Assembly (NCBI GenBank): GCA_964523015.1
Contig: CAZFXN010000011.1
Coordinates: 1-63,502, forward strand
DNA length: 63,502 bases
Direction: 5' to 3'
Origin: an uncultured Bdellovibrionales bacterium
GTDB taxonomy: Bacteria > Bdellovibrionota_C > UBA2361 > J135
This document shows positions 21,500 through 45,041 of the stretch, in pieces (the first letter of the stretch is position 1; each line of letters starts with the position of its first letter). Made by a program: the position numbers and the translations under genes. The notes beneath the pieces were generated by a model, which ran no database searches, was not told the DNA's origin, and saw only the letters and a list, made by a program, of their open reading frames with translations.

Positions 21500-24400
21500 T
21501 CACTTTACTGTAAATAATTTCTTATCTTTATTTAAGTAAAGGCTCTGCATCTCAGTTAGATTAAGTGGTCTTGATCCAATTCTGCCAAACACACTTACCT
21601 GATGTCCTGTCTCATCAACTGCTCTATCTCGATCTAATCCTTTTGAAATTGCTAGTGCCGGACCGTGAGTATGTTTTAAAGCAATTAGTTTTGGTTTTAC
21701 CTCTGGAGAGAATCCGTAATAGGTTGGAACTCTTTCTGGATCAGTTAATTGTAAAATCTTAAAACCATTTATCCCGTCAGCTAGATATGCAAAGAGACTG
21801 GCGTTAGTGGTGGCAACCTTAACATCTGAAAGATCATTAATTGTCCCATCATCATTATATTTCATATATAACTTTGGCTTATCTGCCTTTTCAATATCAA
21901 TTATAACTAGTCCCTCTTTACCACCAGAAACATAGGCATAAGTTCGGGCTAAGTAGATATTTCGAGCATCACTGAGTGAGACAAGAGATCCTTTCACTTT
22001 AATTGGTTTATCTATGTCAGTAATATCAACTGAATGAAATCCATCTTTGTCAGTGACAAAAAGATACCGAAACTGAATTCGACTTGCAGTTGGATTATTA
22101 AACGGGATTTCGGCTCTTACTTTTGGAGAAAGTGGATTATCTAAATCAAGGATTACAATAGACTCAGGGGTTGAAACAAAGGCATTTGTTCCACCTAACT
22201 CAATATGAGTCGCTCCATTTAAAATTCCATCCTCATTCCAGGTTAATGCCCTCTTTAAAAAATTATTCCGTGGTTCAAAGTCGGCTAGAGTATCAACGTT
22301 CACTAAGATTAATCCCTCAACGCTATCAACGATTACAGCATAGTGATAAATTGGATGCATCTTAGTTTCTAAATTCTCTGGCAACTGATCTCTAAAAGGA
22401 GCAATCGGCATGGTTGTAGGGAGAGCAAAAGATGTCGCGTTTTTAGATGACACATGGGTATCCTGCCCAAGCGGTGAAACAGGGGAAGTAACAATTCTCT
22501 CTGAAAATCCTTTGTTAGCGATATTAGCTACATCATAAACTCTAAAACCAGCAGTCCCTGCAGTTGTGTAAAGATATTCACCTCGAAGCTGGATCGTATT
22601 TGTCACTCCTCCCGCACCGTGATGAGGATGACTTGTAGTGAGCTCTAATTTTTTATCTTGGTGAGCTTTAAAGAAATCAGGATAAGCATACCTATGTAGA
22701 TAACTTCCAATAACAGCTTGTGGCTCATCCCATTCTGTTACCTGGACTGCTTCAAGACCAGAATCTCCTGTGGCGACATAAGCATGGTATCCGATAAAGT
22801 TTACAAAATTTGTTCCAAAGAGTTGAAGTTGAGCCATGATTGCATTGTTGTCATTCTTTTTAGAAACGTGGCAATCGGCACACTGCTTTGTTTCAGTTGT
22901 GCGAACTGTGTGTGGAAAATGCGGAGCAAAGGCTTGAGAGCTGTGACCAGATGCCGCAGTTGGAGGCTGCTGTACGTAAATTTTTTGACGATTAATATCT
23001 GTAGAGCTTAAAACTAAAGCACTAGATGATCTAATCGGAACGATTTTTCCGTCCTTAGCTGGACCATGCCGTCCAATTTGAAACATATCATCTCTAGCTA
23101 CTTGTGGATTATAGCTAGCCCAGTTCCTAGTTTCTTTGCCATCATAATGCTTTGATTTTTGCTTCCAGTTAGCTTCTATTGGTAGATGGCATCCAGCGCA
23201 ACTTGTGACCCAGGAGCTATGACAGGTAAAACAAGCTACCTTTGTATCATCATGGGCTAATAATGATTTTCCGCTCTCGGTATTTAAAACATTTGAGACT
23301 GAAGCGTAGCCCGGTTTTGTATCTGATGGCCCAAGAGTTTTTACCAATTTAGCTTTGGCAGCTTTTTCATTATACCAGGGGCTTTTTGCATCTACGATAT
23401 CTCTGACCTGTTTAACCTTCCACTCTTTATCTTTATAAAGGTTCGATCTCTGTATAAGAGTGCTGCCATGCCATTCAAATCTAGGTTTTCCAAAAGGAGT
23501 GCGGGCTAAGGTAAGATCATTTCCCCCATCAGGAGATGCAGGACCACTTGTTAAAAGAGTAGATCTCTCTTTAACCGTACCGTGACAATCCTCACAGGTA
23601 ATTTCTACAGACTGAGCAACTTCCCCGTATATATGACCATCACCATGATTATCCTGGCCAAAGTGACAATCAACACTATGCATCCCCTTATCTAGATGAA
23701 TATCAGAGAGATGAACTGCTTTTTTAAATTTCTGTGGATCGGTGTCAGTGACTTTGGTGCCCTTTTTATCAAGGAGATTCCCCTTTCGATCTCTTTTAAA
23801 GATCGCTCTGAAATTCCAACCATGTCCATGGTAATCAGCAAACTGTGTATTATCTAACTTTGGATTAAGCTCACTAACTTTTTTTAGAAATTCAATATCA
23901 GTCCAATTTCCTCGGCTGGCCGCATCCTCTGGGTTATGACTAAGAGACTGAAATCTCTCCTCTGCTGTTGGGTATTTCTGTTTTTCTGGCCACATATGTG
24001 GAGCATCACTCTCGTAATCCCACATGGTGTAACCTAAATAGGTATTAACAAACATATTTGGCTGATGCATATGACAGATCATGCATTGGCTGGTTGGAAT
24101 GGCTCGAGTAAAAACATGACTTATCGGATGACCCTCTTCATCTTTTGGAATGGTAGGATCTTTAGTTTGTGTTTTTCCTTCGTGTCCAAATTTGGCATAG
24201 GGGCCAGAATGTCTCTCGTCCCGATCGTTGCCATAAATTACATGACATGAGGTGCAGCCACTATTTCTATAATCCCCTGGATGATCGTTGGTTCCCATTA
24301 AGGAAAGATGTGGATCATTAAGTCTGGTTTTATGAATATTAAGCACTGGCACAGAACTTCTAGATCCTGTTCCTGGGCCACGATTTGACTGCCTTACATC

Positions 24401-25186
24401 TGGTCGCCCTGCCTCCTCAAGTGGATTTGGATTTCCGATCTCAGGAAATTGAGATTTGATGAATAGACCGCCACGCTCAAATATTCTAAAATTATCTCCT
24501 GGTGATAGCGTTTCCCACTGCGGTAATGGCACAAGCTTATTAAGGGCGCCGCGACCTTTAACTCGATCATTGATTGACTCATCTATTACAGCTTGAGGTA
24601 TTCCATCCCGAGTATAACTCTCTCCAAGGATATAATTTTTGTACGGTAAGATATTATTATTATAAGAGGCTCCACCAAAGAACATTGCTGAAGTAGTCAT
24701 TAAACTTCTCTTTACCGCTACTACTGTTTCAGCATGACAACCACCACACGTCTCTGGAGCGACTCTAAGATCTCCAGGATTCATAAATTTAACAAATTCG
24801 GGTGATTCCTTTAGCAAATTGGAATAGGAGCGTTTTGGATTAGCTGATGTGGGCCAATTCTCAGGATGTCGGGGCGAAACGTGGGCTAGTTTTTTTGTAT
24901 GATTATATTCCGGTCCATGTAGTGTTGTATTATTAGGTAATCTTACTTTTGGATCGCCTCCATGACAGTGGGCACACCCTATTTGAACTGCTGGATTTGT
25001 ATGCATCGATGGGGCGTCAGTTTTAGTATGACAATCAAAACAGCCAATACTTCCCTCTTTTACTTCCTCTTCTGTAAGCCCTGGTTTTATTGGATCAATT
25101 AGCGGATCCGCTGACGCAGAAATGGCTGCGACAAAAAGAGTAAACAGGGAAATATTTAGCAATCTTAAAATCATCCTTAAAATCAT
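21500..25186 (-). CDS. Secreted multiheme cytochrome c with C-terminal LVIVD-repeat propeller
   Basis: Signal peptide; 9 CxxCH plus one SxxCH; repeats YVATGDSGLEAV, YLYTTAGTAGFRVYDV, YAYVSGGKEGLVIIDI, AYLADGINGFKILQL. Confidence 0.88.
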   Translation of the reverse strand: MILRMILRLLNISLFTLFVAAISASADPLIDPIKPGLTEEEVKEGSIGCFDCHTKTDAPSMHTNPAVQIGCAHCHGGDPKVRLPNNTTLHGPEYNHTKKLAHVSPRHPENWPTSANPKRSYSNLLKESPEFVKFMNPGDLRVAPETCGGCHAETVVAVKRSLMTTSAMFFGGASYNNNILPYKNYILGESYTRDGIPQAVIDESINDRVKGRGALNKLVPLPQWETLSPGDNFRIFERGGLFIKSQFPEIGNPNPLEEAGRPDVRQSNRGPGTGSRSSVPVLNIHKTRLNDPHLSLMGTNDHPGDYRNSGCTSCHVIYGNDRDERHSGPYAKFGHEGKTQTKDPTIPKDEEGHPISHVFTRAIPTSQCMICHMHQPNMFVNTYLGYTMWDYESDAPHMWPEKQKYPTAEERFQSLSHNPEDAASRGNWTDIEFLKKVSELNPKLDNTQFADYHGHGWNFRAIFKRDRKGNLLDKKGTKVTDTDPQKFKKAVHLSDIHLDKGMHSVDCHFGQDNHGDGHIYGEVAQSVEITCEDCHGTVKERSTLLTSGPASPDGGNDLTLARTPFGKPRFEWHGSTLIQRSNLYKDKEWKVKQVRDIVDAKSPWYNEKAAKAKLVKTLGPSDTKPGYASVSNVLNTESGKSLLAHDDTKVACFTCHSSWVTSCAGCHLPIEANWKQKSKHYDGKETRNWASYNPQVARDDMFQIGRHGPAKDGKIVPIRSSSALVLSSTDINRQKIYVQQPPTAASGHSSQAFAPHFPHTVRTTETKQCADCHVSKKNDNNAIMAQLQLFGTNFVNFIGYHAYVATGDSGLEAVQVTEWDEPQAVIGSYLHRYAYPDFFKAHQDKKLELTTSHPHHGAGGVTNTIQLRGEYLYTTAGTAGFRVYDVANIANKGFSERIVTSPVSPLGQDTHVSSKNATSFALPTTMPIAPFRDQLPENLETKMHPIYHYAVIVDSVEGLILVNVDTLADFEPRNNFLKRALTWNEDGILNGATHIELGGTNAFVSTPESIVILDLDNPLSPKVRAEIPFNNPTASRIQFRYLFVTDKDGFHSVDITDIDKPIKVKGSLVSLSDARNIYLARTYAYVSGGKEGLVIIDIEKADKPKLYMKYNDDGTINDLSDVKVATTNASLFAYLADGINGFKILQLTDPERVPTYYGFSPEVKPKLIALKHTHGPALAISKGLDRDRAVDETGHQVSVFGRIGSRPLNLTEMQSLYLNKDKKLFTVK

Positions 25187-25189
25187 CTC

Positions 25190-26950
25190 TTAGTATTCAA
25201 GTATTAGATTAGTAAAAAGTGTATATAAGGTTTCGTCACCATAAAGATTTTTTACTCCATCTTTTGGTTCTAGTGCTGAGGCACCAAATCGAAACTGAAT
25301 ATTATTATTTAAAAATGGTCGGTAAAGTATTCCAGCAGAAAAATCAAAACCTATATCTCTATTAAAGGATCCGTCCTGCCTTAATGCGTTAAGAGTTTCT
25401 ACCTGATCAAATTGCAGGTAGCTAATGTTGGTAATAAGCTTAAGCTGAGGCAGAACTTCAAAATCAGCACCAACATTTAAAAGTCTTATCCCAGGGTTTA
25501 CATAATTAGATTGCCCCTCCTCTTTACCAGCTCTTAAATTTGGCAAGAAACTGTTACGATTTACTAAAAAAACTTCACCCCCTCCGATAAGAGGGAGAGC
25601 TTGTCTTTGCCAATAAGAGAGATCCCCACCAGCAAAGTTAGGATTATCAACAATAGCATCAAACCCAGTCGCTCGATCATCATATGGATCACTATCACCA
25701 GATGCCCATAACGCAGAAGCTCTCAGTCTTATCCAATCAATATCGTATGAGATCTCTTGGGCAAACATAAAGGCACTAACGTTAACCTTCTGAGCAGCAA
25801 TTGGATTATGACTCTCTGACCCGGTTACATAATATGCGGCACTAGTTGTGTTAATCCTATCAATATGGCCATCTGCAGTCAGACCAAAATAAGTTGAATA
25901 AATATTCTTCTCTCTCTCATCCCCTATCGAAGCTGGTCTTCTTAAAAATCCATTTTCATCATAGTGAAAACCGTAATCTCCAGCAGTGTCCTCCCTATAG
26001 ATTACGCTTCCAGAAATTTGATGACCATGTACTGGCCAGTCTTGACGGTATAGATTTCCAACGAAAACTTTCTCATGTCTTGAATCAAATGTGTTAATTC
26101 CAGAATTAGTATCTTTATCTAACCTTGAAAAGGCAGCTAAATTATATTGCCAAAGATTATTTTCGGAATTTCCAAAAAGACGTAAACCAGGGGCTGAATC
26201 AGTAAAAACAAATCCTCTAAAATCACTTTGAAACTGCTGAATACCAACCCGTGATGAGATAAAATCATACTGAGGTGAGATATTCGCCAGGTGAACGTCA
26301 GCAAATAGATCTAAAAATCCAACATGCTCATCATCACGATCTTTTCCTTCAGATGGATCAATATTTAGGACACCGGTCTCCTCAGATTCAACATGATTAA
26401 AATTAATTACTGGAATTGCTCTTAGTTCAAATTCAGGTGGCTTAAATGTCGTATTCCCTCTAATCAAGGAAAAAGAAGGAATAATATTTTGAACTGCAAT
26501 ACTTAGTGAACCATTCCCGATTGTATTTAAACGGCCTGATTCAGATGTTGAAGCCACACCCACTGGCAAAGCTATTTTAGATCTCTCAAACATAGTGTCT
26601 GAGATAACTCCCATCTCTAAAAACCACTCATGCCCAGGGGATCCGAAAACCGGAATGTCTCCCTTTAATACATTTTGGTTATATGGATCGTACCATTTAC
26701 CTGTATAAAACTGCCTCCATCGATCTGGCACCGGCACAAATTCAGAAGCTGAGGAATTAATATCTGGCACGGACTCATATATAAATGGTCGAAAGATTGT
26801 TTTATCTTCACTGCCAGGACGCTGACGTATCTCTGAATCAGTTTCTGCTTTTAAAAAAGTAGTAAGGTATAAAGATAGGACTATAGTCGCAATCGTAATA
26901 GATTTTAAGGGCTTTAAGGAGTTCAGTAAGATTATGAACTTAAAATTCAT
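25190..26950 (-). CDS. Putative outer-membrane beta-barrel protein
   Basis: Signal peptide, alternating amphipathic strands rich in aromatics, C-terminal ...FTNLILEY (BAM-type signal). Confidence 0.7.
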   Translation of the reverse strand: MNFKFIILLNSLKPLKSITIATIVLSLYLTTFLKAETDSEIRQRPGSEDKTIFRPFIYESVPDINSSASEFVPVPDRWRQFYTGKWYDPYNQNVLKGDIPVFGSPGHEWFLEMGVISDTMFERSKIALPVGVASTSESGRLNTIGNGSLSIAVQNIIPSFSLIRGNTTFKPPEFELRAIPVINFNHVESEETGVLNIDPSEGKDRDDEHVGFLDLFADVHLANISPQYDFISSRVGIQQFQSDFRGFVFTDSAPGLRLFGNSENNLWQYNLAAFSRLDKDTNSGINTFDSRHEKVFVGNLYRQDWPVHGHQISGSVIYREDTAGDYGFHYDENGFLRRPASIGDEREKNIYSTYFGLTADGHIDRINTTSAAYYVTGSESHNPIAAQKVNVSAFMFAQEISYDIDWIRLRASALWASGDSDPYDDRATGFDAIVDNPNFAGGDLSYWQRQALPLIGGGEVFLVNRNSFLPNLRAGKEEGQSNYVNPGIRLLNVGADFEVLPQLKLITNISYLQFDQVETLNALRQDGSFNRDIGFDFSAGILYRPFLNNNIQFRFGASALEPKDGVKNLYGDETLYTLFTNLILEY

Positions 26951-26953
26951 TAA

Positions 26954-28942: not shown

Positions 28943-30652
28943 CTATTTCCTTTTATTAAGCGACACAACTATATCTTTAAGAGATCTCTTTTCATTATGA
29001 TTCATAGTCAAAGATTCATGATATGAGTGGCACATAACGCAATTTGATTTAATAAAACCGCTACTAGCTGTAGCACTATGACACTCCTGACACGTTTCTA
29101 TCCCAGGGAGAAACAGATCTTTTGTGCTAGTTGATTCGGCAACTGAATGAGTAGCTAAATTATGACAAGATTCACACTGCACCTCATCATGTGCACCATG
29201 ACTAAAAGTAGAGGCCGGGAACCATTTGCTTGGGATCTCCGGTGTCAATAATTTAAACCGACTCTGGGTTCCATCAAAATTAACATCCTTATTTTCGATA
29301 CTAACTTCCACACTAACATGGCATAATTGACAAGCAGTTTTAGTAAAAAGTTGCTCTTCGGCACTTCTTGATTCTTTTGAGATGTTTGATTTAGTAAAAG
29401 TAACAACTTTGCTCGTCTCTCTTTCTACTGTAAATCCAGGTTTTCTCCTTACATTAAACTCTTCATCCTCTTTGGGACTACTTCCACCACCAAGAGCTAA
29501 TTTTGCATACTCTGCATATAGGTAACTATAAACAAGGTTAGGATCGCCATGTGGTACTTCTTTGTTAGGAAGTCGATCATCAAATGACAGTGGATGGCAA
29601 CTCTTACAATCTCTCTCAAAGGAGATTGGCTCAATTACTTTTCGATCTTTCCCTAATCTATGACAATCAGAACAGTTAAGATCCACTTCACCCTCTGGTC
29701 CGCGAATTCCTTTTTCAAGATGAACCTTGTGGTTAAGTTTAATTGGAGTTGGATCAGTCAGAGATTCCCTATCCTCAAGACTAATCCGGGCGAATTCTTT
29801 CCCCTCAGAATCTTTCCGTATTGAGGCTTTAAATTGAGGATGACTATCAAAGGAATCGATATTTTCTAATTTAGTTTCAGGATTAATATTAGTAATATCT
29901 CCGTGGCAACTACTACAAAGTGCAGAAGCCTGATCTACTAAATGATGATTACCATTATGTTCAGTGTGGCAAGTCGCGCAACTTATATCTAAATCCTCAT
30001 TGGCGGAAATTAATCTTGGCAACGTTGGTGAGTGATCAGTCATAACGTGACAACTCATACATTTTGAATCGGGTACAGCATGGAAAGCTTTTTCATGACA
30101 GGCGCTACAATCCTGCTCAATCATTTTATGATTATTTGAGATCGGCCCACTACTCCAAGAACCTTTATTAACTCCAATTACTGGTAGGATAAAAAATAGA
30201 ATAGCTACTATGCCTGCAAATCCTAAGCAGAGATTTCTAAGTGTTGGGATATGACTTTCTATAGAGAGAGCTGTTACTAATTTGTTGGCCTGCTCCTCCG
30301 GATCAACATCCAAATCATCCCTTCTCTCCTCAGTAAGGTGTATCTCGTTATTTTCTATCTCAACTGCGATTGAGATATCGGAGAGCTTAAGAATGTCTCC
30401 GGTTTTAAGCCTGGCATTAACAATCTTAGCATTATTAAGGAAAACGCCACTACTGCTATCAAGATCATAAACATATGGAACATTGTCAGATACCTGAATA
30501 CTGACATGTTCTAATGAGACAAGTTTACTTTCAAGCAGGATAGCTGAGGCACCACCTCTTCCAATCACAATTGGGAAAGTATCAAACTGACTCGATTTGA
30601 TCTCAGTCTGACCATTCTTTTTTATCGTATGTATTGTATATTTTAGCTTCAT
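28943..30652 (-). CDS. FHA domain - TM - decaheme cytochrome c3-like protein
   Basis: FHA motifs IGRG, VSLEH, DLDSSSGVFLN; one TM helix; 10 CxxCH motifs. Confidence 0.88.
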   Translation of the reverse strand: MKLKYTIHTIKKNGQTEIKSSQFDTFPIVIGRGGASAILLESKLVSLEHVSIQVSDNVPYVYDLDSSSGVFLNNAKIVNARLKTGDILKLSDISIAVEIENNEIHLTEERRDDLDVDPEEQANKLVTALSIESHIPTLRNLCLGFAGIVAILFFILPVIGVNKGSWSSGPISNNHKMIEQDCSACHEKAFHAVPDSKCMSCHVMTDHSPTLPRLISANEDLDISCATCHTEHNGNHHLVDQASALCSSCHGDITNINPETKLENIDSFDSHPQFKASIRKDSEGKEFARISLEDRESLTDPTPIKLNHKVHLEKGIRGPEGEVDLNCSDCHRLGKDRKVIEPISFERDCKSCHPLSFDDRLPNKEVPHGDPNLVYSYLYAEYAKLALGGGSSPKEDEEFNVRRKPGFTVERETSKVVTFTKSNISKESRSAEEQLFTKTACQLCHVSVEVSIENKDVNFDGTQSRFKLLTPEIPSKWFPASTFSHGAHDEVQCESCHNLATHSVAESTSTKDLFLPGIETCQECHSATASSGFIKSNCVMCHSYHESLTMNHNEKRSLKDIVVSLNKRK

Positions 30653-33837: not shown

Positions 33838-34027
33838 AGAGCTGTCTGTACGAAGTGTTCGTTATGTAAACGTTTTTTGGAGGAACTATATGTGAGAGGG
33901 AAAATCGAAGCAATGAAAAGCTCTTTAATGACATGAACATAGGGGAATCTGGTCAATAATTTCAACCGCTGTTTTAATTGTAAAAATCTTACTGACAACC
34001 TCATTGAAGTTCATTAAAGAGAGAGTG

Positions 34028-35911: not shown

Positions 35912-35979
35912 TTGATGTCTTTTCCTGATCAGTCTTTAAAGTTTGAGCTGTCATTATCACAAAATTTGAGTCATTAAGA

Positions 35980-35995
35980 TGTGAAATAAATCACA
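35980..35995. promoter_or_regulatory. CRP-family binding site
   Basis: TGTGA-AATAAA-TCACA, perfect consensus, between the divergent HD and FecR-TPR genes. Confidence 0.75.
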
Positions 35996-39100: not shown

Positions 39101-39552
39101 CGACCACACTTGATGATAAATTTGAAGATCATTTTAATCAAGACTTTCTCTCTGGATATCTGTATCAGGTTTTTTCTAAGCGCTGGGTAGGTACAGTAGA
39201 TTACGATTGGTTTAAATCTGAATTAACCGATCCAGATGTTTATCAAGACCTTAAATTACACAGATCTCGCTTTACATTAAGGTATTTTGATCCATCTGGA
39301 TGGTTTAGCTTTGCTACGGCCACTTGGCGAGAGCAAAACCGAGATGGTAGTTTTTTTGTTGAAGATGGCAATTCGCAATTTTGGATCGTTGATACTGGTG
39401 TTGGATACAGATTTCCTAGCCGTAAGGGTAGTATAGTTTTTAAATGTAATAACATCTTTGATAAACAGTTTGATTACGATCAATCTCCTGGCTTTGAGGA
39501 ATTCGTAGCGGCTGATATTGCTGGTGAAGTCTTGTTGTCGTTTAATTTTTAA
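36154..39552 (+). CDS. FecR - TPR - outer-membrane beta-barrel receptor (NsrA-like)
   Basis: FecR motifs GDTVRT, VRLSENS, TPSVSAAVRGTEF, VSVLDGAV; TPR array (ALDPNDPTPHLY); barrel ending in CNNIFDK...SFNF. Confidence 0.85.
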   Translation: MKVLIYQLIQKDMSSKINYLIVSLFLTSLTLADIALAESIAKLFSAQGVVEIKNPNAATWSKLSEGSAINSGDTVRTLSEGKAAILFTDGGLVRLSENSSMTFEPTKAASNIEKNVAMDSGSAFFFSREPKRFPNVITPSVSAAVRGTEFAVEVTSSQTKVSVLDGAVECKNSYGQVTLSQNEVATTKKGSAPQKSLLINPIDAVQWAINIPIIADKPSLAELRKTSTGGEIIEVSKLLSKGKLKDAESHLRKLHQSVKQKSTSFNGQSLSYIYAYDAILHLVRNDKAKARELSTLAISSNSLNTTALLSAAYVDQASFNLPGAKSKIEKLLLINPSNPVARAKLAELNLSLGSIDEAKRVINENNNSQLSNDLTHSVLGFIALIEYEPAKAIIEFNRAIELNPNSALPVLGRGLAKINQGFLQDGREDIEVAAALEPNVAIYRSYLGKAFFEEDRENLSLNEYARAIALDPNDPTPHLYRAYTYLSQNNVIGALSDVEDSISKNDNRAVYRSKLYLDEDSAVRSAGLAEVFNSIGFVKAAQIEAIKSINKDYGNYSAHKLLSESYNTIQTSDALLSEKAITNLLSPLSFNLYSNPGSDASLNEYNALFERPNRKVDLRYRGSTHEDLSVPAAFLTGRTEKFGYLLGVESGNANGSKDNNYLRDQRLRAAGQYQLTSKDRIITEGRYQAFHSVQDNSGLDEVISENYELDLGYHHKFGPGSGFISQVTYRDARNHFGSYAERPMALDIISDAEIFSTEEIVALNELANEDVRDLRFSAQYYKNTEFLTIVTGAESYSAKPKRRESSTILDDEFDLFPGIDRQLRSESTPDLTSQDIYLYPTLHLTKMLDLNLGVSYTNIEVEDRVVLPYLDTTTDQSRWNPKVGTTVYLTPDLTWRSAYFEGLRKSALEDTGTLEPTLVGGFNQIFNDFSGARSRTYATGLDYKIAKKTYMGVERSHRDVIEADNLARTTYSLDFDSLTQSTTTTLDDKFEDHFNQDFLSGYLYQVFSKRWVGTVDYDWFKSELTDPDVYQDLKLHRSRFTLRYFDPSGWFSFATATWREQNRDGSFFVEDGNSQFWIVDTGVGYRFPSRKGSIVFKCNNIFDKQFDYDQSPGFEEFVAADIAGEVLLSFNF

Positions 39553-39577: not shown

Positions 39578-40990
39578 ATGAGAATTATTAAAAAAATTTT
39601 CTTACTTTCGACTATATTCAGCTCCCCTCTAATCTTTGCACCTCTAGCATCTGCTAACTTCACAGATATATATATCTCTGAACCAGTTATGGGCTTGGGC
39701 CAAATTCTTAAAGCAACAAAGAATGGGGTAGGTCTTGCAACAATTCCTCCTACCCCATCTGAGCCAATTAAGATTGCTCTTGATTCTGCACAGAATAAGA
39801 TTTATTGGGTCGAACAGAATACTGGACTAATTAGGAGGGCCAATCTTGATGGCACCAGTCAAGAAACTGTCGTATCAGGGACTTCTCCTCACGCATTAGC
39901 ACTTGATTTCACAAACGGAAGAATTTTTTGGGCTGAGGGGGTGAGCTCTAAGATGATCCATAGAGCAAATATTGATGGCTCTAATCCTACAATAATCTTA
40001 ACAACTGGCGAGGTATCAGCTAATATCGATCTAGCCTACGAAGCTACGACCAATATGTTTTATTGGACTGAACCTTCAAATGATATGATTTTTAGAGCGA
40101 ATCCTGATGGTTCTGGAGTAGTTGCAATCGTTACTATCCCATCAACAGGAACCCTATCTGGACTGTCTATCGATAAAGATAATCTTAAGATTTACTGGTC
40201 AGATAGTGGAGATCGAAATGTCAGTAGAGCTAATCTTGATGGAACTGGGTCTGAAATTGTAATAATGGATTCCCTCATTACCCCAGAAGGGATTGCTGTA
40301 GATTCTGTTGATGGACCAACTGTCTATTGGGCAGATACTAGTGCCCAAAGAGTACAAAGGTACAATATTGCTGGCGGTTCAATCCAAACTATCCTTACAT
40401 CAGTTGATGGGTTAACAATCCCTACTGATGTTGATCTTTTCTTTGACTCTTCAACACCTACTCCTACACCTACACCTACGCCTACACCTACTCCCGTTCC
40501 AGAAAAGACAGTCCCACAAACTCCAACTGTTGTTTTAACTGCTGACTCAAAGGAGGTGGATGTAACCTTTGAAGAATTTACAATTGAGTTCTTTTACCCA
40601 GAAGGAATCTCTTCTCAACTTGTTAACAAAACCCCTCAAGTTAGGTACGATGCAACCGCAAGAAGAAGTGACGGCGTTACAAAAAGAGTCATAAGTAAGA
40701 ATAGACAAGCAAAAATAAAACTACCTATCGGCTCCTGGTCAATTGACTATCGAGGACTTGCAGTTATTAAGAGAAAAAAATCGAAGCAAACTAGCGCTTC
40801 TACTAAGCTTAAAAATCGAATTGCTGACTTAGCAGCTAAGCTCGCAGAAACGCCTATCAATAAGACCAACAAGAGAATTTCTCTTAAAAACAAAATTCAA
40901 ACAGCTCAAGCTAAGAAAGCCTTAGCTAAAACAAAGACTGCGAAAAGAACGCTGAGAAGTGAGCCCTCAGATACGTTTAGTATCGAATGA
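39578..40990 (+). CDS. Secreted YWTD (LDL-receptor class B) beta-propeller protein with PT linker
   Basis: Repeats KIYWVE..IRRANLDG, IFWAE, FYWTE, IYWSD, VYWAD; (PT)n linker; basic C-terminal domain. Confidence 0.85.
   Translation: MRIIKKIFLLSTIFSSPLIFAPLASANFTDIYISEPVMGLGQILKATKNGVGLATIPPTPSEPIKIALDSAQNKIYWVEQNTGLIRRANLDGTSQETVVSGTSPHALALDFTNGRIFWAEGVSSKMIHRANIDGSNPTIILTTGEVSANIDLAYEATTNMFYWTEPSNDMIFRANPDGSGVVAIVTIPSTGTLSGLSIDKDNLKIYWSDSGDRNVSRANLDGTGSEIVIMDSLITPEGIAVDSVDGPTVYWADTSAQRVQRYNIAGGSIQTILTSVDGLTIPTDVDLFFDSSTPTPTPTPTPTPTPVPEKTVPQTPTVVLTADSKEVDVTFEEFTIEFFYPEGISSQLVNKTPQVRYDATARRSDGVTKRVISKNRQAKIKLPIGSWSIDYRGLAVIKRKKSKQTSASTKLKNRIADLAAKLAETPINKTNKRISLKNKIQTAQAKKALAKTKTAKRTLRSEPSDTFSIE
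40454..40495 (+). repeat. Hexanucleotide tandem repeat encoding (TP)7
   Basis: ACACCT/ACTCCT/ACGCCT units. Confidence 0.85.
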
Positions 40991-41030
40991 GAAGTTTTCA
41001 TTTCTCCATATCTATGATAGACTTACTGGT

Positions 41031-42458
41031 ATGATGCAGAGACTTACTTTGATAAATTTTCTTTCTCAGATCAATTTTCTTTTTCAATGCTCTTTTCTAG
41101 GGCTCTTCTTAATACTATCTCTATTTACACCAGCCATCCTGCAAGCTGCCCCTGCTAATTTATATACAACAGATCCACAAGCTTTATTAATCTTTAGATC
41201 TAAACTTGATGGCACAGATCTCAAAAGTGAAATAGGGTCAAATTTTACTGCCTCTCCGTATGGTGTCGCACTTGATATAGACAACAACACAGTTTATTGG
41301 ACAGAGCCAGGAAATAACAGCATCTTTAAAGGGGATCTTAAAGGTCAAACAAAATCCCTAGTAACTGACAAAGCTTTCAGTCCAAACGACATCGCCATTG
41401 ATAGAGTTGCTCAGAAATTGTATTGGGTCAGTAAATTTACACCAGCAAGTATCAAAAGAAGTAATGTAGATGGCTCTAATATGGAGGATGTTTATGTAAG
41501 CCTCTCAGCAAATGGTCCAGATGGAATTGATCTAGATGTCACTGCTGGAAAAATTTATTGGACAGATATTTTTGATATAGCTGTTAAGCGTGCCAATCTT
41601 GATGGGACAAATGTTGAAAACGTAATCACCTCACTTATGTCAACTGAAATGCCCGATCTAGCTTTAGATATCCCTAATGGAAAAGTTTATTGGCTAGATG
41701 GTACCAATACAAATATTCAAAGGGCGAATATGGATGGCTCCTCAGGATCTCCTGTTACAGTTATATCCTTAGGAGTTAATCCCTTGGGGTTGGCTATAGA
41801 TTCTACTGTCACTCCTTCAGTAGCTTACTGGACGGAGCTTCAAACTAGTCAAGTTAGAAAATTATCTTTAAGTGTTGGAGGTCCTGCTCCCACCGCAGTA
41901 ACAATACTTGGCACAGGCGATGGACTTAATGCGCCAACCCATCTAGCGCTTGGTGATTTCCCGCCATTAACTCCGATTACAACAATCGATGCCCCTCCAG
42001 GAGTAGGAGTAGATAGTTCGAACAAAACAGTGACCCTAACTTTTGAAGATTTCTCCGGTGCGCTCATAGAGTCATTTGGAGCATTTGCTCTTACCGATAT
42101 TACTGGTCAATTAGTGAACAAGACTCCCCAAGTAAGGTATCAAGCTACTATTACAAATAAAACAAACTCAAAGATTAAAAAGATTGTCACTAAAAACACT
42201 CAAGCTACTAGAAAACTTCCAGTTGGAACTTATAGTGCAAACTATGTAGCTCATGTAGTCGTTGCTAAAGGCAAAAAGAAGAACTTAAAAAAGAAAGCTA
42301 AGATTAAAGCCCAACTTGCGGCTCTTAAAAATGAGCCAAACACAATTGAAAATCAGAATAAAAAAGAGGTGTTGAAGGCAAACAAAAAACTTGCCGGATT
42401 TAAAGTTAAATCAACAACTGAAGACAGTCCAACTACCCCTGCATTTGATATTAACTAG
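41031..42458 (+). CDS. Secreted YWTD beta-propeller protein, paralog of the upstream gene
   Basis: VYWTE, LYWVS, IYWTD, VYWLD, AYWTE with RANLDG; shared QLVNKTPQVRY; start uncertain (ATG 41031). Confidence 0.82.
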   Translation: MMQRLTLINFLSQINFLFQCSFLGLFLILSLFTPAILQAAPANLYTTDPQALLIFRSKLDGTDLKSEIGSNFTASPYGVALDIDNNTVYWTEPGNNSIFKGDLKGQTKSLVTDKAFSPNDIAIDRVAQKLYWVSKFTPASIKRSNVDGSNMEDVYVSLSANGPDGIDLDVTAGKIYWTDIFDIAVKRANLDGTNVENVITSLMSTEMPDLALDIPNGKVYWLDGTNTNIQRANMDGSSGSPVTVISLGVNPLGLAIDSTVTPSVAYWTELQTSQVRKLSLSVGGPAPTAVTILGTGDGLNAPTHLALGDFPPLTPITTIDAPPGVGVDSSNKTVTLTFEDFSGALIESFGAFALTDITGQLVNKTPQVRYQATITNKTNSKIKKIVTKNTQATRKLPVGTYSANYVAHVVVAKGKKKNLKKKAKIKAQLAALKNEPNTIENQNKKEVLKANKKLAGFKVKSTTEDSPTTPAFDIN

Positions 42459-42487
42459 TTTGAGAACTTTAAGTTTTTTAGGTTCTT

Positions 42488-42943
42488 CTAAGATCGCCTA
42501 GTTGCCTGACCCAATGCTTGAGAGACGCAGAGAAAGCCATCATTACATTCAAGCCTAAACTCAAAGAGTGTAGTAGCGTCATTATCATTAAGTTGTGAAT
42601 ATCCAACTGAGGATGTCTGAGTACAAAAAGATCCGTCTCCAAAAAGATCTCCTGAGAGATCTTCAATTGCAGTCAATATGCCATCGCTCTGAGTTGCTGT
42701 GGCTTCAGTTATAAATGTATCATTTGAGGTCAAGATCATTGTTCCATCATCTAGTTCAGAAATATCGTGTTCAGAGACAAATCCTGTAATCCCTGGTGTT
42801 ACAAGCTGACAATCATCAGTAGATAAATTATATCTGACATCCCAGATCCCTAAATAAGAGGTATTCGTCGTGTTATTGTTACTATTACATGCAACAATGC
42901 TAAATGATGCCAATGCACTTAAAACAAAATGAAGGCTTCTCAT
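42488..42943 (-). CDS. Hypothetical lipoprotein
   Basis: Lipobox IVAC; four further Cys residues. Confidence 0.7.
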   Translation of the reverse strand: MRSLHFVLSALASFSIVACNSNNNTTNTSYLGIWDVRYNLSTDDCQLVTPGITGFVSEHDISELDDGTMILTSNDTFITEATATQSDGILTAIEDLSGDLFGDGSFCTQTSSVGYSQLNDNDATTLFEFRLECNDGFLCVSQALGQATRRS

Positions 42944-43073: not shown

Positions 43074-45041
43074 ATGAAACGTTGGCTAACCTCTGCCCTA
43101 CTAGGAATCATAATAACGTTGCTCCATCTGCTGACTTCACTTAGTCAAGTAGGAGATAATATAGAGCCAAAGGCATTAGATCTATGGTCTCAGCTTAGAG
43201 GATCCAAAATTGCTCCCCAAGATATTGTTTTAATATCTATGGATGAGGCAAGTTACAAAAACCTAAACATCCCTCTTAGCCAGGCTTGGCCTAGGAAGAT
43301 TCATGCGGAGTTGTTAAATAAACTTTCAACAGCTGGTGTAAAAAGAGTGGTTTTTGATGTGCTTTTCTTAGACCCTGGCAACGATTCAAAAATCGATAGT
43401 ACCCTATCCGTAGCTATGTCAAAAGTTCCAACAGTCCTAGGAACTGATTCAATCATTAAAGATTACTCCTCAGCTAGTGGTTCTTTTAAAATTGAAGAGG
43501 TACTACTCCCTCATAAACCATTTCTGGAAAATGCTGAGCGTGCTGCATTAGTTGGATTCCCAGAGGATGATGGATTTGTAAGAAGATTTTTAACCGACCG
43601 ATCGGCCCAGACAAAAAATTTCAATACTCTATCAGAGGCGGCTGCTGGAATCTCAAATCAAGACCGAAATACACTTCCAGGGCCTCGTGATTTTATAAAT
43701 TATCTTGGTCCTAAAGGAACTATCCCCTTTATTAGTTATTATCAGGCGATTGATAAGGATCATCCAATTCCAAATGACGCCCTTAAAGATAAGATTGTAT
43801 TTATTGGATTATTGCTACAAACAGATGTTGGCCCCTCACAAAAAGATGTTTTCATGACCCCTTTTGGTCGAATTTTTGGAACTGAAATTCATGCTACTGC
43901 TGCGCTTAATCTTATACACAAAGACTGGATTAAAAGGGGGTCAGCTTGGTTAGAGATCCTAACTTTAAGTCTAGTTACTTTTCTACTTACAACTACACTC
44001 TTTGCACTTCGTCCTCTTTGGGCCACAGTATTATTTGCTGGAACTCTTATTACCTGGATTATAGTAGGATATATGAGTTTCCTTAATAATATTTTTATAC
44101 CTGGAACACTTTTAGTATCAATTTTTCTCCCGATTACACTTCTTTTAAGTACGCTCTACTATTATTTTGTTACTCGCAAAGCTGAACTTAAACTTGCTAG
44201 CGCTTTTGAATTATATGTTTCTCCTCAAATGGCAAAATCAGTCGCTAACAACCAGAAAAGCCTTTCATTAGGAGGAGAAAAAGTTTGGGCTACCGCCATG
44301 TTTACTGACATCCAGGCTTTCACCTCAATCTCTGAAAATATGCCAGCAGAGCAGGTCTCTGCAATGTTAAATGCGTATTTTACTGAGGTCATGGATGTTG
44401 TCTTTAATAATGACGGCACCCTTTTAAAATTTATTGGGGATGCTATCTTTGTAATTTGGGGAGCGCCGGTAAAGATTAATGATCATGCCTCAAAAGCGTG
44501 CCAGACTGCATTAGCGATTCAAAAAGAGGTTCATAGATTTAATGAATCAAAAAGATTTCCCCCTCTTTTAACAAGAATTGGAATTCATACTGGTCCAATG
44601 GTGGTTGGGAATCTTGGCTCGAGTAAGCGGTTTGACTATACAGCTATTGGAGATTCCGTAAATCTAGCCTCCCGCATCGAAGGAATAAACAAGTTTTTTG
44701 GTACTTATATCTTAATTAGCGAGACCGTAAAAAAAGAGGTTGGGGGGACATTTTCATCTCTAGTGGTTGGTTCAATAAAAGTAGCAGGAAAAGATGAGGC
44801 AGTGACTCTCTACATCTTGCTCGAAGATCCTTTGCCTGAATCAATATCAAAATCCTGGGAGGAGGCCATTATAAAATTTAAATCTCAAAAATGGAGTGAG
44901 GCTGAGACTGGCTTTAAAAGTACAGAATCTCTTCCTTTGCTTAGTAAAGCTTCTAAATTTTACTTAAAGCAGATTGCTAATTATTTAAAAGATCCTCCAC
45001 CATCAAATTGGCAAGGTGACCTCTCATTCATAGAAAAATAA
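43074..45041 (+). CDS. CHASE2-domain class III adenylate cyclase
   Basis: CHASE2 (WPRKIHA, FDVLF, GTEIHA), 3 TM; MFTDIQAFT, LKFIGDAI, GIHTG, DYTAIGDSVNLASRIEG (Lys/Thr pair indicates ATP specificity). Confidence 0.93.
   Translation: MKRWLTSALLGIIITLLHLLTSLSQVGDNIEPKALDLWSQLRGSKIAPQDIVLISMDEASYKNLNIPLSQAWPRKIHAELLNKLSTAGVKRVVFDVLFLDPGNDSKIDSTLSVAMSKVPTVLGTDSIIKDYSSASGSFKIEEVLLPHKPFLENAERAALVGFPEDDGFVRRFLTDRSAQTKNFNTLSEAAAGISNQDRNTLPGPRDFINYLGPKGTIPFISYYQAIDKDHPIPNDALKDKIVFIGLLLQTDVGPSQKDVFMTPFGRIFGTEIHATAALNLIHKDWIKRGSAWLEILTLSLVTFLLTTTLFALRPLWATVLFAGTLITWIIVGYMSFLNNIFIPGTLLVSIFLPITLLLSTLYYYFVTRKAELKLASAFELYVSPQMAKSVANNQKSLSLGGEKVWATAMFTDIQAFTSISENMPAEQVSAMLNAYFTEVMDVVFNNDGTLLKFIGDAIFVIWGAPVKINDHASKACQTALAIQKEVHRFNESKRFPPLLTRIGIHTGPMVVGNLGSSKRFDYTAIGDSVNLASRIEGINKFFGTYILISETVKKEVGGTFSSLVVGSIKVAGKDEAVTLYILLEDPLPESISKSWEEAIIKFKSQKWSEAETGFKSTESLPLLSKASKFYLKQIANYLKDPPPSNWQGDLSFIEK

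What the first reader, a model, noticed from the sequence alone, without database searches (positions are those of the whole stretch)
21500..45041. Candidate novel system: cAMP-gated trans-envelope multiheme electron conduit with its own signal-sensing circuit
Seen: six minus-strand genes (33837 to 21500) with gaps of -4 to 6 nt encode one component per compartment: a cytoplasmic FAD/NAD(P)H + 2 cNMP + 4x[4Fe-4S] protein, a His-bearing membrane protein, an FHA-TM-decaheme cytochrome, a double GlcG/HbpS lipoprotein, an outer-membrane barrel and a nonaheme-LVIVD protein. Directly adjacent are a c554-like cytochrome, an HD hydrolase, a perfect CRP box, a FecR-TPR-barrel receptor and a CHASE2 adenylate cyclase. 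Known: porin-cytochrome complexes (Mtr, Pcc) move electrons across the envelope, but they are fed from the quinol pool and have no cNMP or FHA domains. Inference: an external signal drives cAMP production, cAMP switches on NAD(P)H-linked electron flow through roughly 24 c-hemes to the periplasm or surface, and the HD enzyme resets the circuit. I know of no characterised system with this architecture.
Basis: partly seen in the sequence, partly recalled or inferred. Interest (0 to 1): 0.92.

Follow-up and report, generated by a model that had tools for sequence, protein, structure and literature searches.

The report
Cyclic-nucleotide-sensing multihaem electron-export gene cluster
A conserved seven-gene cluster, found in hundreds of bacterial species, appears to pass electrons from cytoplasmic NAD(P)H out to about 24 periplasmic haems, carries its own cyclic-nucleotide sensor, and has no tested function.

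Summary

This is not a local oddity. F relatives turned up in 593 genome stretches across several phyla, and A-G travel together in three gene orders. A always keeps its flavin domain, two cyclic-nucleotide-binding domains with intact phosphate-binding cassettes, and 16 FeS cysteines. B has two invariant His pairs, 14 residues apart, on two membrane helices, which is the pattern of a di-haem b protein.

The link to the CHASE2 cyclase is real but optional:
- It lies within 15 kb of A in 8 of 25 cluster-bearing genomes of the window's order.
- It lies within 10 kb in 4 of 17 genomes from other phyla chosen without knowing this (0.69 expected).
- In three genomes it is the only cyclase present.

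The Mtr-like step across the outer membrane is not supported, because E models as an 18-strand AlgE-like barrel. The CRP box is not conserved.

A 2024 preprint names a similar, uncharacterised operon (ptd). My best reading is an NAD(P)H-fed, cNMP-gated electron exporter to a periplasmic decahaem-propeller enzyme. Its substrate is unknown.

The parts
31474..33837 (-). A: cytoplasmic flavin (TrxR/YpdA-like) + two cNMP-binding domains + four [4Fe-4S] motifs, 787 aa
   Evidence: Pfam. Profile against PDB: Bdr/YpdA 7e-41, PKG/PKA tandem CNB 1e-45, HycB 6e-26. GxGxxG, both phosphate-binding cassettes and 16 Cys are invariant in 11 orthologues.
30659..31477 (-). B: 5-TM membrane protein, putative di-haem cytochrome b, 272 aa
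   Evidence: Invariant His83/97 and His250/264. Weak PF01292 matches in 8 of 11 orthologues and PF01794 in 4 of 11. No PDB fold match.
28943..30652 (-). C: FHA - TM - decahaem c cytochrome, 569 aa
   Evidence: Pfam FHA and c3/c7 families, 10 CXXCH, TM segment 135-166. The FHA region aligns in 38 of 52 homologues not cut by a contig end.
26954..28942 (-). D: lipoprotein with repeated HbpS/GlcG-like domains, 662 aa
   Evidence: Pfam HbpS-like 5e-22. Lipobox. PDB: EfgA/GlcG 2e-8.
25190..26950 (-). E: outer-membrane beta-barrel of AlgE (alginate export) type, 586 aa
   Evidence: Atlas features. AF2 model with about 18 strands. Foldseek AlgE 1e-11, then 18-strand porins.
21500..25186 (-). F: secreted 9(10)-haem cytochrome with a C-terminal LVIVD beta-propeller, 1228 aa; the most conserved subunit
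   Evidence: 66-72% identity within the order and 55-61% in other phyla. No PDB relative by sequence.
34004..35317 (+). G: secreted c554-like tetra/pentahaem cytochrome, 437 aa, divergent from A
   Evidence: Pfam Cytochrome_C554 2e-11. Adjacent in 10 of 10 fetched genomes of the order.
35297..35911 (-). H: small HD-superfamily protein, class I cNMP-phosphodiesterase-like, 204 aa
   Evidence: Sub-threshold Pfam matches. Invariant H27, H31, H63, D64. 59 of the 60 best PDB matches are class I PDEs, at E 0.014-0.5.
35980..35995 (.). Perfect TGTGA-N6-TCACA palindrome between H and I
   Evidence: 0.07 expected per window; not found at the same place in relatives.
36154..39552 (+). I: FecR + TPR + long C-terminal region, NsrA-like outer-membrane receptor candidate, 1132 aa
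   Evidence: Pfam. BLASTP 7e-25 over 525 aa to a rhizobial 1256-aa FecR-TPR protein encoded directly upstream of a CHASE2 cyclase.
39578..42943 (.). J, K (LDL-receptor class B propellers, + strand) and L (151-aa lipoprotein-like, - strand): inserts specific to this genus within the I...M module
   Evidence: Pfam. Found only in the window and in same-genus G001 among the 10 fetched genomes.
43074..45041 (+). M: CHASE2 class III nucleotide cyclase, 655 aa
   Evidence: Pfam CHASE2 5e-36 and Guanylate_cyc 2e-25. One of only two PF00211 matches in the genome.

Best explanation
A-G form one redox machine that carries electrons from cytoplasmic NAD(P)H to the periplasm. The proposed path is: TrxR-like flavin domain of A, then the four [4Fe-4S] clusters of A's HycB-like C-terminus, then two b haems held by the two His pairs of membrane subunit B, then the ten c haems of the membrane-anchored C, then the soluble cytochrome G and the very conserved decahaem-propeller protein F. 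I take F to be the terminal enzyme acting on a substrate still unknown. The lipoprotein D and the AlgE-like barrel E serve it at the outer membrane, most likely as a channel for substrate or product rather than as a sheath for a cytochrome.

The two cNMP-binding domains sit between flavin and FeS wire in A. I infer that cAMP (or cGMP) switches electron flow on or off directly. In this genome the signal would come from the NsrA-like receptor I and the CHASE2 cyclase M, and the PDE-like protein H would end it. FHA on C adds control by threonine phosphorylation; other lineages carry PP2C and FHA genes next to the cluster.

Shown: gene content, conservation, motifs and neighbourhood statistics. 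Inferred: cofactors, direction of flow, gating, location of F, substrate.
For: Conserved unit:
- Full-length A is present in 24 of 41 genomes of the order, plus one truncated copy.
- In the 10 genomes I fetched, A-F keep the same order in 9; in the tenth the contig ends inside E. G is adjacent in 10 of 10.
Among the best 80 loci, E was found in 75, D in 65, G in 57, C in 55, A in 53 and B in 51. Most misses are cut contigs.

Electron path:
- A resembles Bdr/YpdA, TrxR and TrxR-type FNR, and its C-terminus resembles the HycB four-cluster wires.
- All 16 FeS Cys and the dinucleotide motifs are invariant.
- B has His pairs 14 apart on TM3 and TM5, invariant in 11 of 11. Weak matches to the di-haem families PF01292 (8 of 11) and PF01794 (4 of 11) recur.
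- Complex prediction of A(600-787) with B gave weak support: score 0.44, best of 3 controls 0.01. That mark was reached by 58 of 80 solved complexes and 2 of 110 mismatched pairs, but at 0.60 or under by only 7 of those 80 and by both mismatches. The runs agree in at least 92% of contacts, and the partner's pLDDT is at least 72.

cNMP link:
- Both cassettes (GE...RxA[T]) are invariant in 11 of 11 orthologues. A is collinear over all domains wherever the contig allows.
- All 14 A-like matches in 13 of 401 sampled Pseudomonadota lie in open frames of 822 aa or more, consistent with the fused form.
- An M orthologue lies within 15 kb of A in 8 of 25 genomes of the order, in 5 families, with rearranged orientations.
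- Outside the order, a class III cyclase lies within 10 kb in 7 of 20 genomes. That is 4 of 17 after dropping the three picked with prior knowledge; 0.69 are expected, Poisson P 0.005.
- It is the only PF00211 match of the genome in G049, G052 and G053, and one of two in G044.
- Five of these cyclases were confirmed as CHASE2 type, two with FecR-domain neighbours.

H: near A in 12 of 25 genomes of the order. H-like domains also sit beside cyclase paralogues on G016 C19, G017 C30, G025 C93 and G018 C47.

Phosphothreonine layer: PP2C genes follow G in 13 of the 80 loci and double-FHA genes in 9 of them, mostly gammaproteobacterial.
Against: - No cofactor, activity or transcript was seen; everything rests on sequence.
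- B reaches no Pfam cut-off, and its model matches no solved fold (best E 0.67).
- The A-B prediction is only weak.
- In about two thirds of genomes no cyclase is nearby.
- M orthologues also occur in 5 genomes of the order without the cluster (G009, G015, G018, G023, G032).
- Four cluster-bearing genomes showed only paralogue-level M matches (G011, G017, G025, and G039, which is 62% complete).
- The weak PF01292 likeness leaves room for quinone coupling.
- The E model is of modest quality (pLDDT 61.5; TM-score to AlgE 0.35-0.45), so the strand count could be off.
- A type II secretion system next to the cluster in a few alphaproteobacteria hints that some component may be extracellular.
- L083 and L106 carry D-E-F without A or B nearby.
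Confidence: 0.5

Rival explanations
1. A true Mtr/Pcc-type trans-envelope conduit. A cytochrome threads the barrel E, and F (or G) sits on the cell surface and reduces insoluble or extracellular acceptors such as Fe(III) or Mn(IV).
For: A barrel gene lies between cytochrome genes, and there are about 24 c haems. A complete type II secretion system lies next to G/A in three marine alphaproteobacterial genomes, and GspE/GspG in a fourth. I recall, from no call, that Shewanella needs such a system to place MtrC and OmcA on the surface. The ptd preprint makes the same suggestion for its operon.
Against: E models with about 18 strands, and its best fold matches are AlgE and 18-strand porins; no MtrB is listed among the matches shown. 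No MtrA/DmsE-family match reaches the cut-off. F has no lipobox. The named carriers (Limnobacter, Parahaliea, Sphingoaurantiacus, Zavarzinia) are known to me as aerobes (recalled). An NAD(P)H-fed export conserves no energy.
Confidence: 0.15
2. B is a quinol/quinone-reactive cytochrome b of the FdnI/HyaC/CybB kind. Periplasmic haems are fed from the quinol pool as in known systems. A is then a cNMP-regulated NAD(P)H:quinone entry point or a purely regulatory subunit.
For: The commonest weak family match of B orthologues is PF01292, prokaryotic cytochrome b561 (8 of 11, best E 0.0015). Four-cluster FeS subunits usually partner quinone-reactive anchors (recalled).
Against: The matches are below the cut-off. 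A, B and C stay adjacent in most loci. The A-B interface was weakly supported. No quinone-site motif was tested.
Confidence: 0.15
3. Flow runs inward. F oxidises a periplasmic substrate (a reduced N, S or metal species), and electrons pass via G, C, B and A to NAD(P)+.
For: F is conserved like an enzyme: 55-72% identity across phyla, against 24-48% for C. G is c554-like, and c554 is the acceptor of hydroxylamine oxidoreductase (recalled).
Against: Reducing NAD(P)+ while moving electrons inward against the membrane potential needs a very low-potential donor (established bioenergetics; not computed here). No such donor enzyme signature was found in F.
Confidence: 0.07
4. The cyclase/FecR/HD genes are a separate signalling module that merely lies nearby. 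The CNB domains of A bind another ligand or are structural, so there is no cAMP gating.
For: Of 25 cluster-bearing genomes in the order, 17 have no M orthologue within 15 kb (13 hold it on another contig, 4 have none). M also occurs in 5 genomes without the cluster. The CRP box is not conserved. The CHASE2-FecR/NsrA pairing exists on its own in rhizobia.
Against: The enrichment holds across unrelated lineages, including three genomes whose only cyclase is at the cluster. The cassette residues are invariant.
Confidence: 0.13

Closest known systems
ptdABCDEFG operon of marine Alphaproteobacteria (bioRxiv 10.1101/2023.11.21.568154; search listing and passages read; supplements closed)
   Same: By its description it has a periplasmic tetrahaem protein, a cNMP-binding protein with 4Fe-4S clusters, a ferric-reductase-like membrane protein, a periplasmic decahaem protein and a porin. 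Its function is stated to be completely unknown. These match G, A, B, C and E here.
   Different: The preprint lists a pentahaem protein with a beta-sandwich (a homologue of a pentahaem c552) and a separate FAD/NAD(P) oxidoreductase. It lists no HbpS-like lipoprotein, and the gene order differs. Here F has 9-10 haem sites plus an LVIVD propeller and matches no solved cytochrome, and the flavin domain is fused into A. I could not obtain any ptd sequence, so kinship is by description only. Searches for a split form found none. The preprint does not mention, in the passages I read, the cyclase linkage, the FHA/PP2C layer or the His pattern of B.
Porin-cytochrome conduits MtrCAB / Pcc (named from my own knowledge and the preprint's discussion)
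   Same: Multihaem c cytochromes are encoded together with an outer-membrane barrel.
   Different: The barrel is of AlgE size. There is no MtrA/DmsE or MtrC family member above the cut-off. The input is a cytoplasmic flavo-FeS protein rather than a quinol dehydrogenase. cNMP and FHA domains are present.
NOX / FRE / MsrQ-Fre type transmembrane electron export (di-haem b; recalled)
   Same: A cytoplasmic NAD(P)H-flavin donor is paired with a membrane protein carrying two His pairs about 14 residues apart, feeding an acceptor outside the membrane.
   Different: B has 5 TM segments and a 110-residue cytoplasmic insert, reaches no family cut-off and has no fold match. The flavin domain is TrxR-like, not FNR-like. 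An FeS wire and about 24 c haems are added.
NsrA - CyaK/CyaD1/D2 - Clr cAMP cascade of Sinorhizobium meliloti (PMC7529298 and PMC5498481, passages read)
   Same: A large FecR/TPR protein with a C-terminal barrel region is encoded next to a CHASE2 adenylate cyclase. I aligns at E 7e-25 with such a rhizobial protein lying directly upstream of a CHASE2 cyclase. A Crp-family regulator exists in the genome.
   Different: In rhizobia the output is transcription through Clr. Here an enzyme subunit carries the cNMP sensor. The rhizobial record I used is unannotated, so that its protein is NsrA itself is my inference.
cNMP-regulated enzymes with CNB domains (PKA/PKG regulatory domains; mycobacterial acetyltransferase Pat; NCBIfam matches)
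   Same: Tandem CNB domains most like PKG/PKA (E 1e-45), with canonical cassettes.
   Different: The regulated partner would be a flavin/FeS electron-transfer chain. I know of no characterised example (recalled). Public names for A homologues are generic only.

Membership tests
Porin-cytochrome conduit (MtrCAB/Pcc) | Outer-membrane barrel wide enough to enclose a multihaem cytochrome (26 strands in MtrB, recalled) | tested here: not met
   The E model has about 18 long strands. The best folds are AlgE at E 1e-11, then 18-strand porins; no MtrB is listed. Model quality is modest (pLDDT 61.5).
Porin-cytochrome conduit (MtrCAB/Pcc) | Periplasmic MtrA/DmsE-family decahaem cytochrome | tested here: not met
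   TIGR03508 matched only G, at 26.1 bits against a cut-off of 192.2; there was no match for C.
Porin-cytochrome conduit (MtrCAB/Pcc) | Surface lipoprotein cytochrome of the MtrC/OmcA kind | tested here: not met
   F and G have signal peptides without a lipobox Cys. The MtrC-MtrF domain matched only G, at E 0.0059, below the cut-off.
Porin-cytochrome conduit (MtrCAB/Pcc) | Electrons supplied from the quinol pool by a dedicated quinol dehydrogenase | tested here: inconclusive
   No such gene lies among A-G. B could itself react with quinone. The rest of the genome was not searched.
Di-haem cytochrome b families (PF01794 ferric reductase-like; PF01292 cytochrome b561) | Two His pairs on two TM helices, each pair about 13 residues apart | tested here: met
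   His83/97 and His250/264 are invariant in 11 of 11 orthologues.
Di-haem cytochrome b families (PF01794 ferric reductase-like; PF01292 cytochrome b561) | Family profile matched above the curated cut-off | tested here: not met
   For the window protein, PF01794 scored 14.8 bits (cut-off 28) and PF01292 12.6 bits (cut-off 30.1). Among orthologues the best PF01292 E-value was 0.0015.
Di-haem cytochrome b families (PF01794 ferric reductase-like; PF01292 cytochrome b561) | Fold like a solved member | tested here: not met
   Foldseek of the B model (pLDDT 75) against PDB gave a best E of 0.67.
ptd operon (preprint) | Tetrahaem, cNMP/FeS, ferric-reductase-like TM, decahaem and porin genes together | tested here: met
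   G, A, B, C and E fit the descriptions. This is a match of descriptions, not of sequences.
ptd operon (preprint) | Pentahaem protein with a beta-sandwich (c552-like), and a separate FAD/NAD(P) oxidoreductase | tested here: not met
   F has 9-10 haem sites plus LVIVD and no PDB cytochrome match. The flavin domain is fused into A in every A-like match found.
ptd operon (preprint) | Sequence homology to PtdA-G | not testable with these tools
   No ptd sequence could be fetched, and the supplementary tables are closed.
NsrA/CHASE2-cyclase/Crp-type cAMP cascade | CHASE2 sensor fused to a class III cyclase | tested here: met
   M: CHASE2 5e-36 and Guanylate_cyc 2e-25.
NsrA/CHASE2-cyclase/Crp-type cAMP cascade | Large FecR-TPR outer-membrane protein encoded beside the cyclase | tested here: met
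   I has FecR plus TPR. It aligns at 7e-25 with a rhizobial FecR-TPR protein encoded next to a CHASE2 cyclase. I and M are adjacent in G027 and G036. The barrel of I was not modelled.
NsrA/CHASE2-cyclase/Crp-type cAMP cascade | Crp-family regulator acting on a conserved box | tested here: inconclusive
   A Crp-family protein is encoded on another contig. There is one perfect box, but it is not conserved in relatives.
Class I cNMP phosphodiesterase (for H) | PDEase_I profile above the cut-off | tested here: not met
   18.1 bits against 24.8. The profile against PDB gave E 0.014 at best, although 59 of the 60 best matches are PDEs.
Class I cNMP phosphodiesterase (for H) | Metal-binding His/Asp motifs (YHN..H...DV; HD) | tested here: met
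   H27, H31, H63 and D64 are invariant in 6 of 6 orthologues and align to the PDE motifs.

The most novel reading that the evidence does not exclude
A widespread, signal-triggered bacterial counterpart of the eukaryotic NADPH-oxidase burst. An outer-membrane receptor and a CHASE2 cyclase raise cAMP. cAMP binds the tandem CNB domains wedged between flavin and FeS wire of subunit A and directly opens an NAD(P)H-driven electron path across the inner membrane into about 24 haems. The path ends in a conserved decahaem-propeller enzyme that reduces an external or periplasmic oxidant, or makes a reactive product. A minimal PDE and phosphothreonine (FHA/PP2C) switches reset it. This would be the first second-messenger-gated electron-transport chain.
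Probability: 0.3. Interest if true: 0.92.

Novelty: new variant of a known kind. Interest (0 to 1): 0.78.

Why it matters
If cNMP binding gates electron flow directly, this adds a new class of second-messenger target, an electron-transfer chain, alongside kinases, channels and transcription factors.

The cluster is common. F relatives occur in at least 593 species-level genomes, A-like proteins in 13 of 401 sampled Pseudomonadota, and 3,897 A-like protein clusters were counted in public data. It occurs in culturable, harmless bacteria such as Limnobacter alexandrii, Parahaliea maris, Sphingoaurantiacus capsulatus and Zavarzinia, so the idea can be tested at the bench.

It may also explain how bacteria that are mostly aerobic spend NAD(P)H on reductive chemistry outside the cytoplasm. 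Candidates are iron or manganese reduction, metalloid reduction, oxidant defence, or extracellular superoxide production. For several of these the enzymes are, to my knowledge, still unknown.

Tried and rejected
Fold of B: the AF2 model (pLDDT 75) found no PDB match, so no fold-level support could be added.

F and B against solved structures by sequence: nothing below E 0.1.

Conservation of the CRP box: the pattern, allowing one mismatch, was absent from the H-I or M-I intergenic regions of G001, G027 and G036. In the ten upstream stretches scanned it occurred only twice, elsewhere. I therefore dropped it as evidence.

Looking for the ptd form by sequence:
- A-like matches in 61 genomes of one alphaproteobacterial order: 21 full-length, and one that matched the FeS part only.
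- A-like matches in 401 Pseudomonadota: 13 genomes, all with open frames of 822 aa or more.
- The neighbourhoods of four alphaproteobacterial loci and of the two G120 copies showed no pentahaem-porin-FAD arrangement.
So kinship to ptd stays untested.

Expression: no RNA holder was listed for 25190-33837.

Promoter and terminator scan of 20900-36300: fewer promoter-like sites than in shuffles (20 against 41), so it is uninformative.

An unrelated paper came up for 'multiheme' + 'LVIVD': the uet cluster of Tenderiales (10.1101/2022.05.06.490989; passages read). There the LVIVD protein is a separate, non-haem protein, so it is not the same thing.

Literature searches that found no description of this cluster other than ptd. 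For PMC13001267, PMC10463352 and PMC10127613 I saw only the search listing. Garnerone et al. 2018 I saw only as a reference-list entry.

Full report
**What is in the window.** Six minus-strand ORFs run from 33837 to 21500, with junctions of -4 to 6 nt.
- A (787 aa) has a two-dinucleotide-binding flavin domain, two cNMP-binding domains and four Cys4 motifs.
- B (272 aa) has five hydrophobic segments and no Pfam family.
- C (569 aa) is FHA, one TM segment and ten CXXCH.
- D (662 aa) is a lipoprotein with repeated HbpS-like domains.
- E (586 aa) has no family.
- F (1228 aa) has nine CXXCH and an LVIVD repeat region.

Divergent from A lies G, a c554-like cytochrome with four CXXCH and one CX4CH. 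Next come H (a small HD protein), a perfect TGTGA-N6-TCACA palindrome at 35980-35995, I (FecR plus TPR, 1132 aa), two LDL-receptor-class-B propeller proteins (J, K), a small ORF (L) and M (CHASE2 plus class III cyclase).

One correction concerns F. 9 of 9 complete F orthologues in the order have ten CXXCH. The window has Ser504 (AGT) in place of the first Cys of the sixth site.

**It is a conserved unit, and widespread.**
- A full-length A orthologue is present in 24 of 41 genomes of the window's order (G000 included), and a truncated one in a 25th.
- I fetched 10 of these. A-B-C-D-E-F kept the same order in 9, the contig ends inside E in the tenth, and G is adjacent and divergent in 10 of 10.
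- The best 80 loci carry titles from Bdellovibrionota, Alpha-, Beta- and Gammaproteobacteria, Acidobacteriota, Binatia and Myxococcales. They include isolates of Limnobacter, Sphingoaurantiacus, Parahaliea, Zavarzinia and Fontimonas.
- In these 80 loci ORFs matching E occur in 75, D in 65, G in 57, C in 55, A in 53 and B in 51. Most misses are loci cut by contig ends.
- Real exceptions exist: L083 has D-E-F with 6 kb upstream lacking A, B and C, and L106 has C-G without A or B.
- Three gene orders recur: A-B-C-D-E-F with G divergent; B-C-D-E-F-G-A; and G-D-E-F facing C-B-A.
- A-like proteins occur in 13 of 401 sampled Pseudomonadota and in 21 of 61 genomes of one alphaproteobacterial order. 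3,897 protein clusters matched A at E 1e-30 or better among the 8,000 candidates scored. The source names shown for the best 120 are generic only.

**The electron path.** The A profile matches three kinds of solved protein:
- YpdA/Bdr and thioredoxin-reductase-like flavoproteins at the N-terminus (7e-41), and a TrxR-type ferredoxin-NADP reductase (1e-17).
- PKG/PKA tandem CNB domains in the middle (1e-45).
- The four-cluster electron wires HycB3, HycB4 and HycB at the C-terminus (6e-26).

In 11 orthologues from Bdellovibrionota and Proteobacteria, the dinucleotide glycines and all 16 FeS cysteines are invariant. I saw no CxxC redox disulfide in the flavin domain. That fits an NAD(P)H/FeS function better than a disulfide reductase (inference).

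B carries four invariant histidines in two pairs, each 14 residues apart, on TM3 and TM5. This is the spacing known from cytochrome b and ferric-reductase domains (recalled). Eight of 11 B orthologues give weak matches to PF01292 and four to PF01794, both di-haem families, but none reaches a cut-off. The B model finds no solved fold.

A complex prediction of A(600-787) with B gave weak support: 0.44 against 0.01 for the best of three controls. That mark was reached by 58 of 80 solved complexes and 2 of 110 mismatched pairs, but at 0.60 or under by only 7 of those 80 and by both mismatches. The runs agree in at least 92% of contacts, and the partner's pLDDT is at least 72.

C then offers ten c haems on the periplasmic side of a single TM anchor.

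**The outer module.** E is a barrel. Its language-model features are close to an alginate-export cluster. Its AF2 model (pLDDT 61.5) has about 18 long strands. Foldseek ranks AlgE first (E 1e-11), followed by 18-strand porins, with no MtrB among the matches listed. Such a barrel is too narrow to sheath a decahaem in the MtrAB manner (recalled dimensions).

D, a lipoprotein encoded just upstream of E, mirrors the AlgK-AlgE pairing (recalled). It is related to GlcG/EfgA/HbpS small-molecule or haem-binding domains.

F is the most conserved protein of the set: 66-72% identity within the order and 55-61% in other phyla, against 24-48% for C. It has many invariant His beyond the ten proximal ones. 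I read this as an enzyme rather than a plain wire. It has no solved relative and only a local likeness to ExtM (75 bits against a cut-off of 800).

A complete type II secretion system abuts G/A in three marine alphaproteobacterial genomes, and two of its genes in a fourth. So a surface-exposed component cannot be excluded.

**The cyclic-nucleotide link.** Both phosphate-binding cassettes of A are invariant across the 11 orthologues, and the three-part architecture is kept wherever a contig allows.

Within the order, an M orthologue lies within 15 kb of A on the same contig in 8 of 25 cluster-bearing genomes. These are G000, G001, G005, G021, G027, G033, G036 and G038, from five families, with different orientations. 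Elsewhere it lies on other contigs, some of them long. Five genomes have M without the cluster, and four have the cluster with only paralogue-level M matches. G000 itself has only two class III cyclases.

Outside the order I mapped all PF00211 matches in 20 cluster-bearing genomes.
- A cyclase lies within 10 kb of the cluster in 7.
- Three of the 20 had been chosen knowing of a tblastn match. Dropping those leaves 4 of 17, against 0.69 expected (P 0.005).
- In G049, G052 and G053 it is the only cyclase of the genome. In G044 (Limnobacter) it is one of two, and in G045 (Sphingoaurantiacus) two of four.
- Pfam shows CHASE2 plus cyclase in five of these, with a FecR-domain gene beside it in Limnobacter and in the Parvularculaceae genome. 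The sixth scanned is a GAF-PAS cyclase.

I aligns (7e-25 over 525 residues) with a 1256-aa rhizobial FecR-TPR protein whose stop overlaps the start of a CHASE2 cyclase. That is the NsrA-CyaK arrangement described for Sinorhizobium meliloti (PMC7529298 and PMC5498481; passages read). The record is unannotated, so that name is my inference.

I conclude that the cyclase module is an independent, known kind of signalling unit that has repeatedly come to lie next to this cluster. This fits its product being what A senses. From recalled specificity motifs (Lys in ...LKFIGD, Thr before ...AIGDSVN), M looks like an adenylate cyclase. The CNB domains resemble PKG as much as PKA, so I write cNMP.

**H and the other controls.** H reaches no Pfam cut-off. 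A profile of six orthologues finds class I cNMP phosphodiesterases in 59 of its 60 best PDB matches (E 0.014-0.5), aligned on the YHN..H..DV and HD metal motifs, which are invariant. H lies on A's contig, within about 14 kb, in 12 of 25 genomes of the order, including four that have no M nearby. H-like domains also sit next to cyclase paralogues in four genomes.

The CRP-like palindrome is unexpected by chance (0.07 per window), and a Crp-family protein is encoded elsewhere in the genome. However, the site is not found in relatives, even in the same genus, so I give it little weight.

The FHA domain of C is present in 6 of 10 orthologues in the order and in 38 of 52 homologues not cut by a contig end elsewhere. 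In the 80 loci, mostly gammaproteobacterial ones, a PP2C phosphatase gene (13 loci) and a double-FHA gene (9 loci) follow G. So phosphothreonine control is a second recurring input. Betaproteobacterial loci carry cytochrome c maturation genes divergent from B, as expected for such a haem load.

**Reading and comparison.** The best-supported model is an NAD(P)H-fed electron exporter: flavin, then FeS wire, then two b haems, then membrane-anchored decahaem, then soluble cytochromes, ending in F. It has a built-in cNMP switch.
- It works like NOX/FRE or Fre-MsrQ in principle, but fails their family tests.
- It resembles porin-cytochrome conduits in parts list only and fails their defining features.
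- The closest thing in print is the ptd operon, named in a 2024 preprint version. It shares four or five described parts and is explicitly of unknown function. Its terminal cytochrome, its separate flavoprotein and its gene order differ, and I could not compare sequences.

None of the literature searches found a tested function or the cyclase linkage.

Direction of flow, cofactors, gating, the location of F and the substrate are inferences. No expression data could be had.

**Verdict.** The finding is real, widespread and uncharacterised. The signalling link is supported by comparative genomics, but it is facultative.

Noticed in passing
window 23675-23677: In F the first Cys of the sixth haem motif is Ser (codon AGT; TGT would give Cys). 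All 8 aligned orthologues have Cys. This is either a single-Cys haem site or a base error in the assembly.
   Followed up: partly
window 20165-21049 (+): A B12-binding domain protein with an XRE-type HTH (B12-binding, B12-binding_2, HTH_3), convergent with F. It is possibly a light- or cobalamin-responsive regulator. It was not found next to the cluster in the other genomes fetched.
   Followed up: partly
window 39578-42458 (+): Two paralogous secreted proteins with LDL-receptor class B (YWTD) propellers, Pro/Thr-rich linkers and Lys-rich tails lie between the FecR-TPR gene and the cyclase gene. They occur only here and in the same-genus genome G001.
   Followed up: partly
L120:2150-14845 (also L119, L121; GspE/GspG in L088): A complete type II secretion system (GspE, F, G, L-like, secretin, prepilin peptidase) lies directly beside G and A in marine alphaproteobacterial genomes. 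The prepilin peptidase gene sits between G and A.
   Followed up: partly
L095:14907-17041 and 12 / 8 further loci: A PP2C phosphatase gene and a gene for a protein with two FHA domains follow G in mostly gammaproteobacterial versions of the cluster. Several of these have a C subunit that lacks its own FHA domain.
   Followed up: partly
L051:423-3315 (-), L056:506-3066 (-): Cytochrome c maturation genes (CcmA, CcmB, CcmH/CycH-like) diverge from B in betaproteobacterial loci. In Limnobacter, CcmA and CcmB are fused in one 438-aa ORF.
   Followed up: no
L123:12485-14962 and L123:7469-10747: One proteobacterial genome (G120) has a second full-length A paralogue with no B or C after it. It lies 1.7 kb from a FIST-domain class III cyclase.
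   Followed up: partly
G016 C19, G017 C30, G025 C93, G018 C47: H-like HD domains lie inside open frames of 650-706 aa, next to or near CHASE2-cyclase paralogues or orthologues. This suggests a fused, longer form of the PDE-like protein.
   Followed up: no
L016:4417-9120 and L026:4399-5337: In G040 and G011 extra ORFs are inserted between C and D (about 4.8 kb and 1 kb). One in G011 begins like a nucleoside phosphorylase; that is my impression from its first residues and was not scanned.
   Followed up: no
window 230-9032: A chemotaxis gene set (CheA, CheB, an MCP, and CheW/CheV-like genes) lies upstream. Also in the window are MurJ, glutathione peroxidase, cyclopropane-fatty-acid synthase, DUF1365 and an amine oxidase. 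None is linked to the cluster in other genomes.
   Followed up: no
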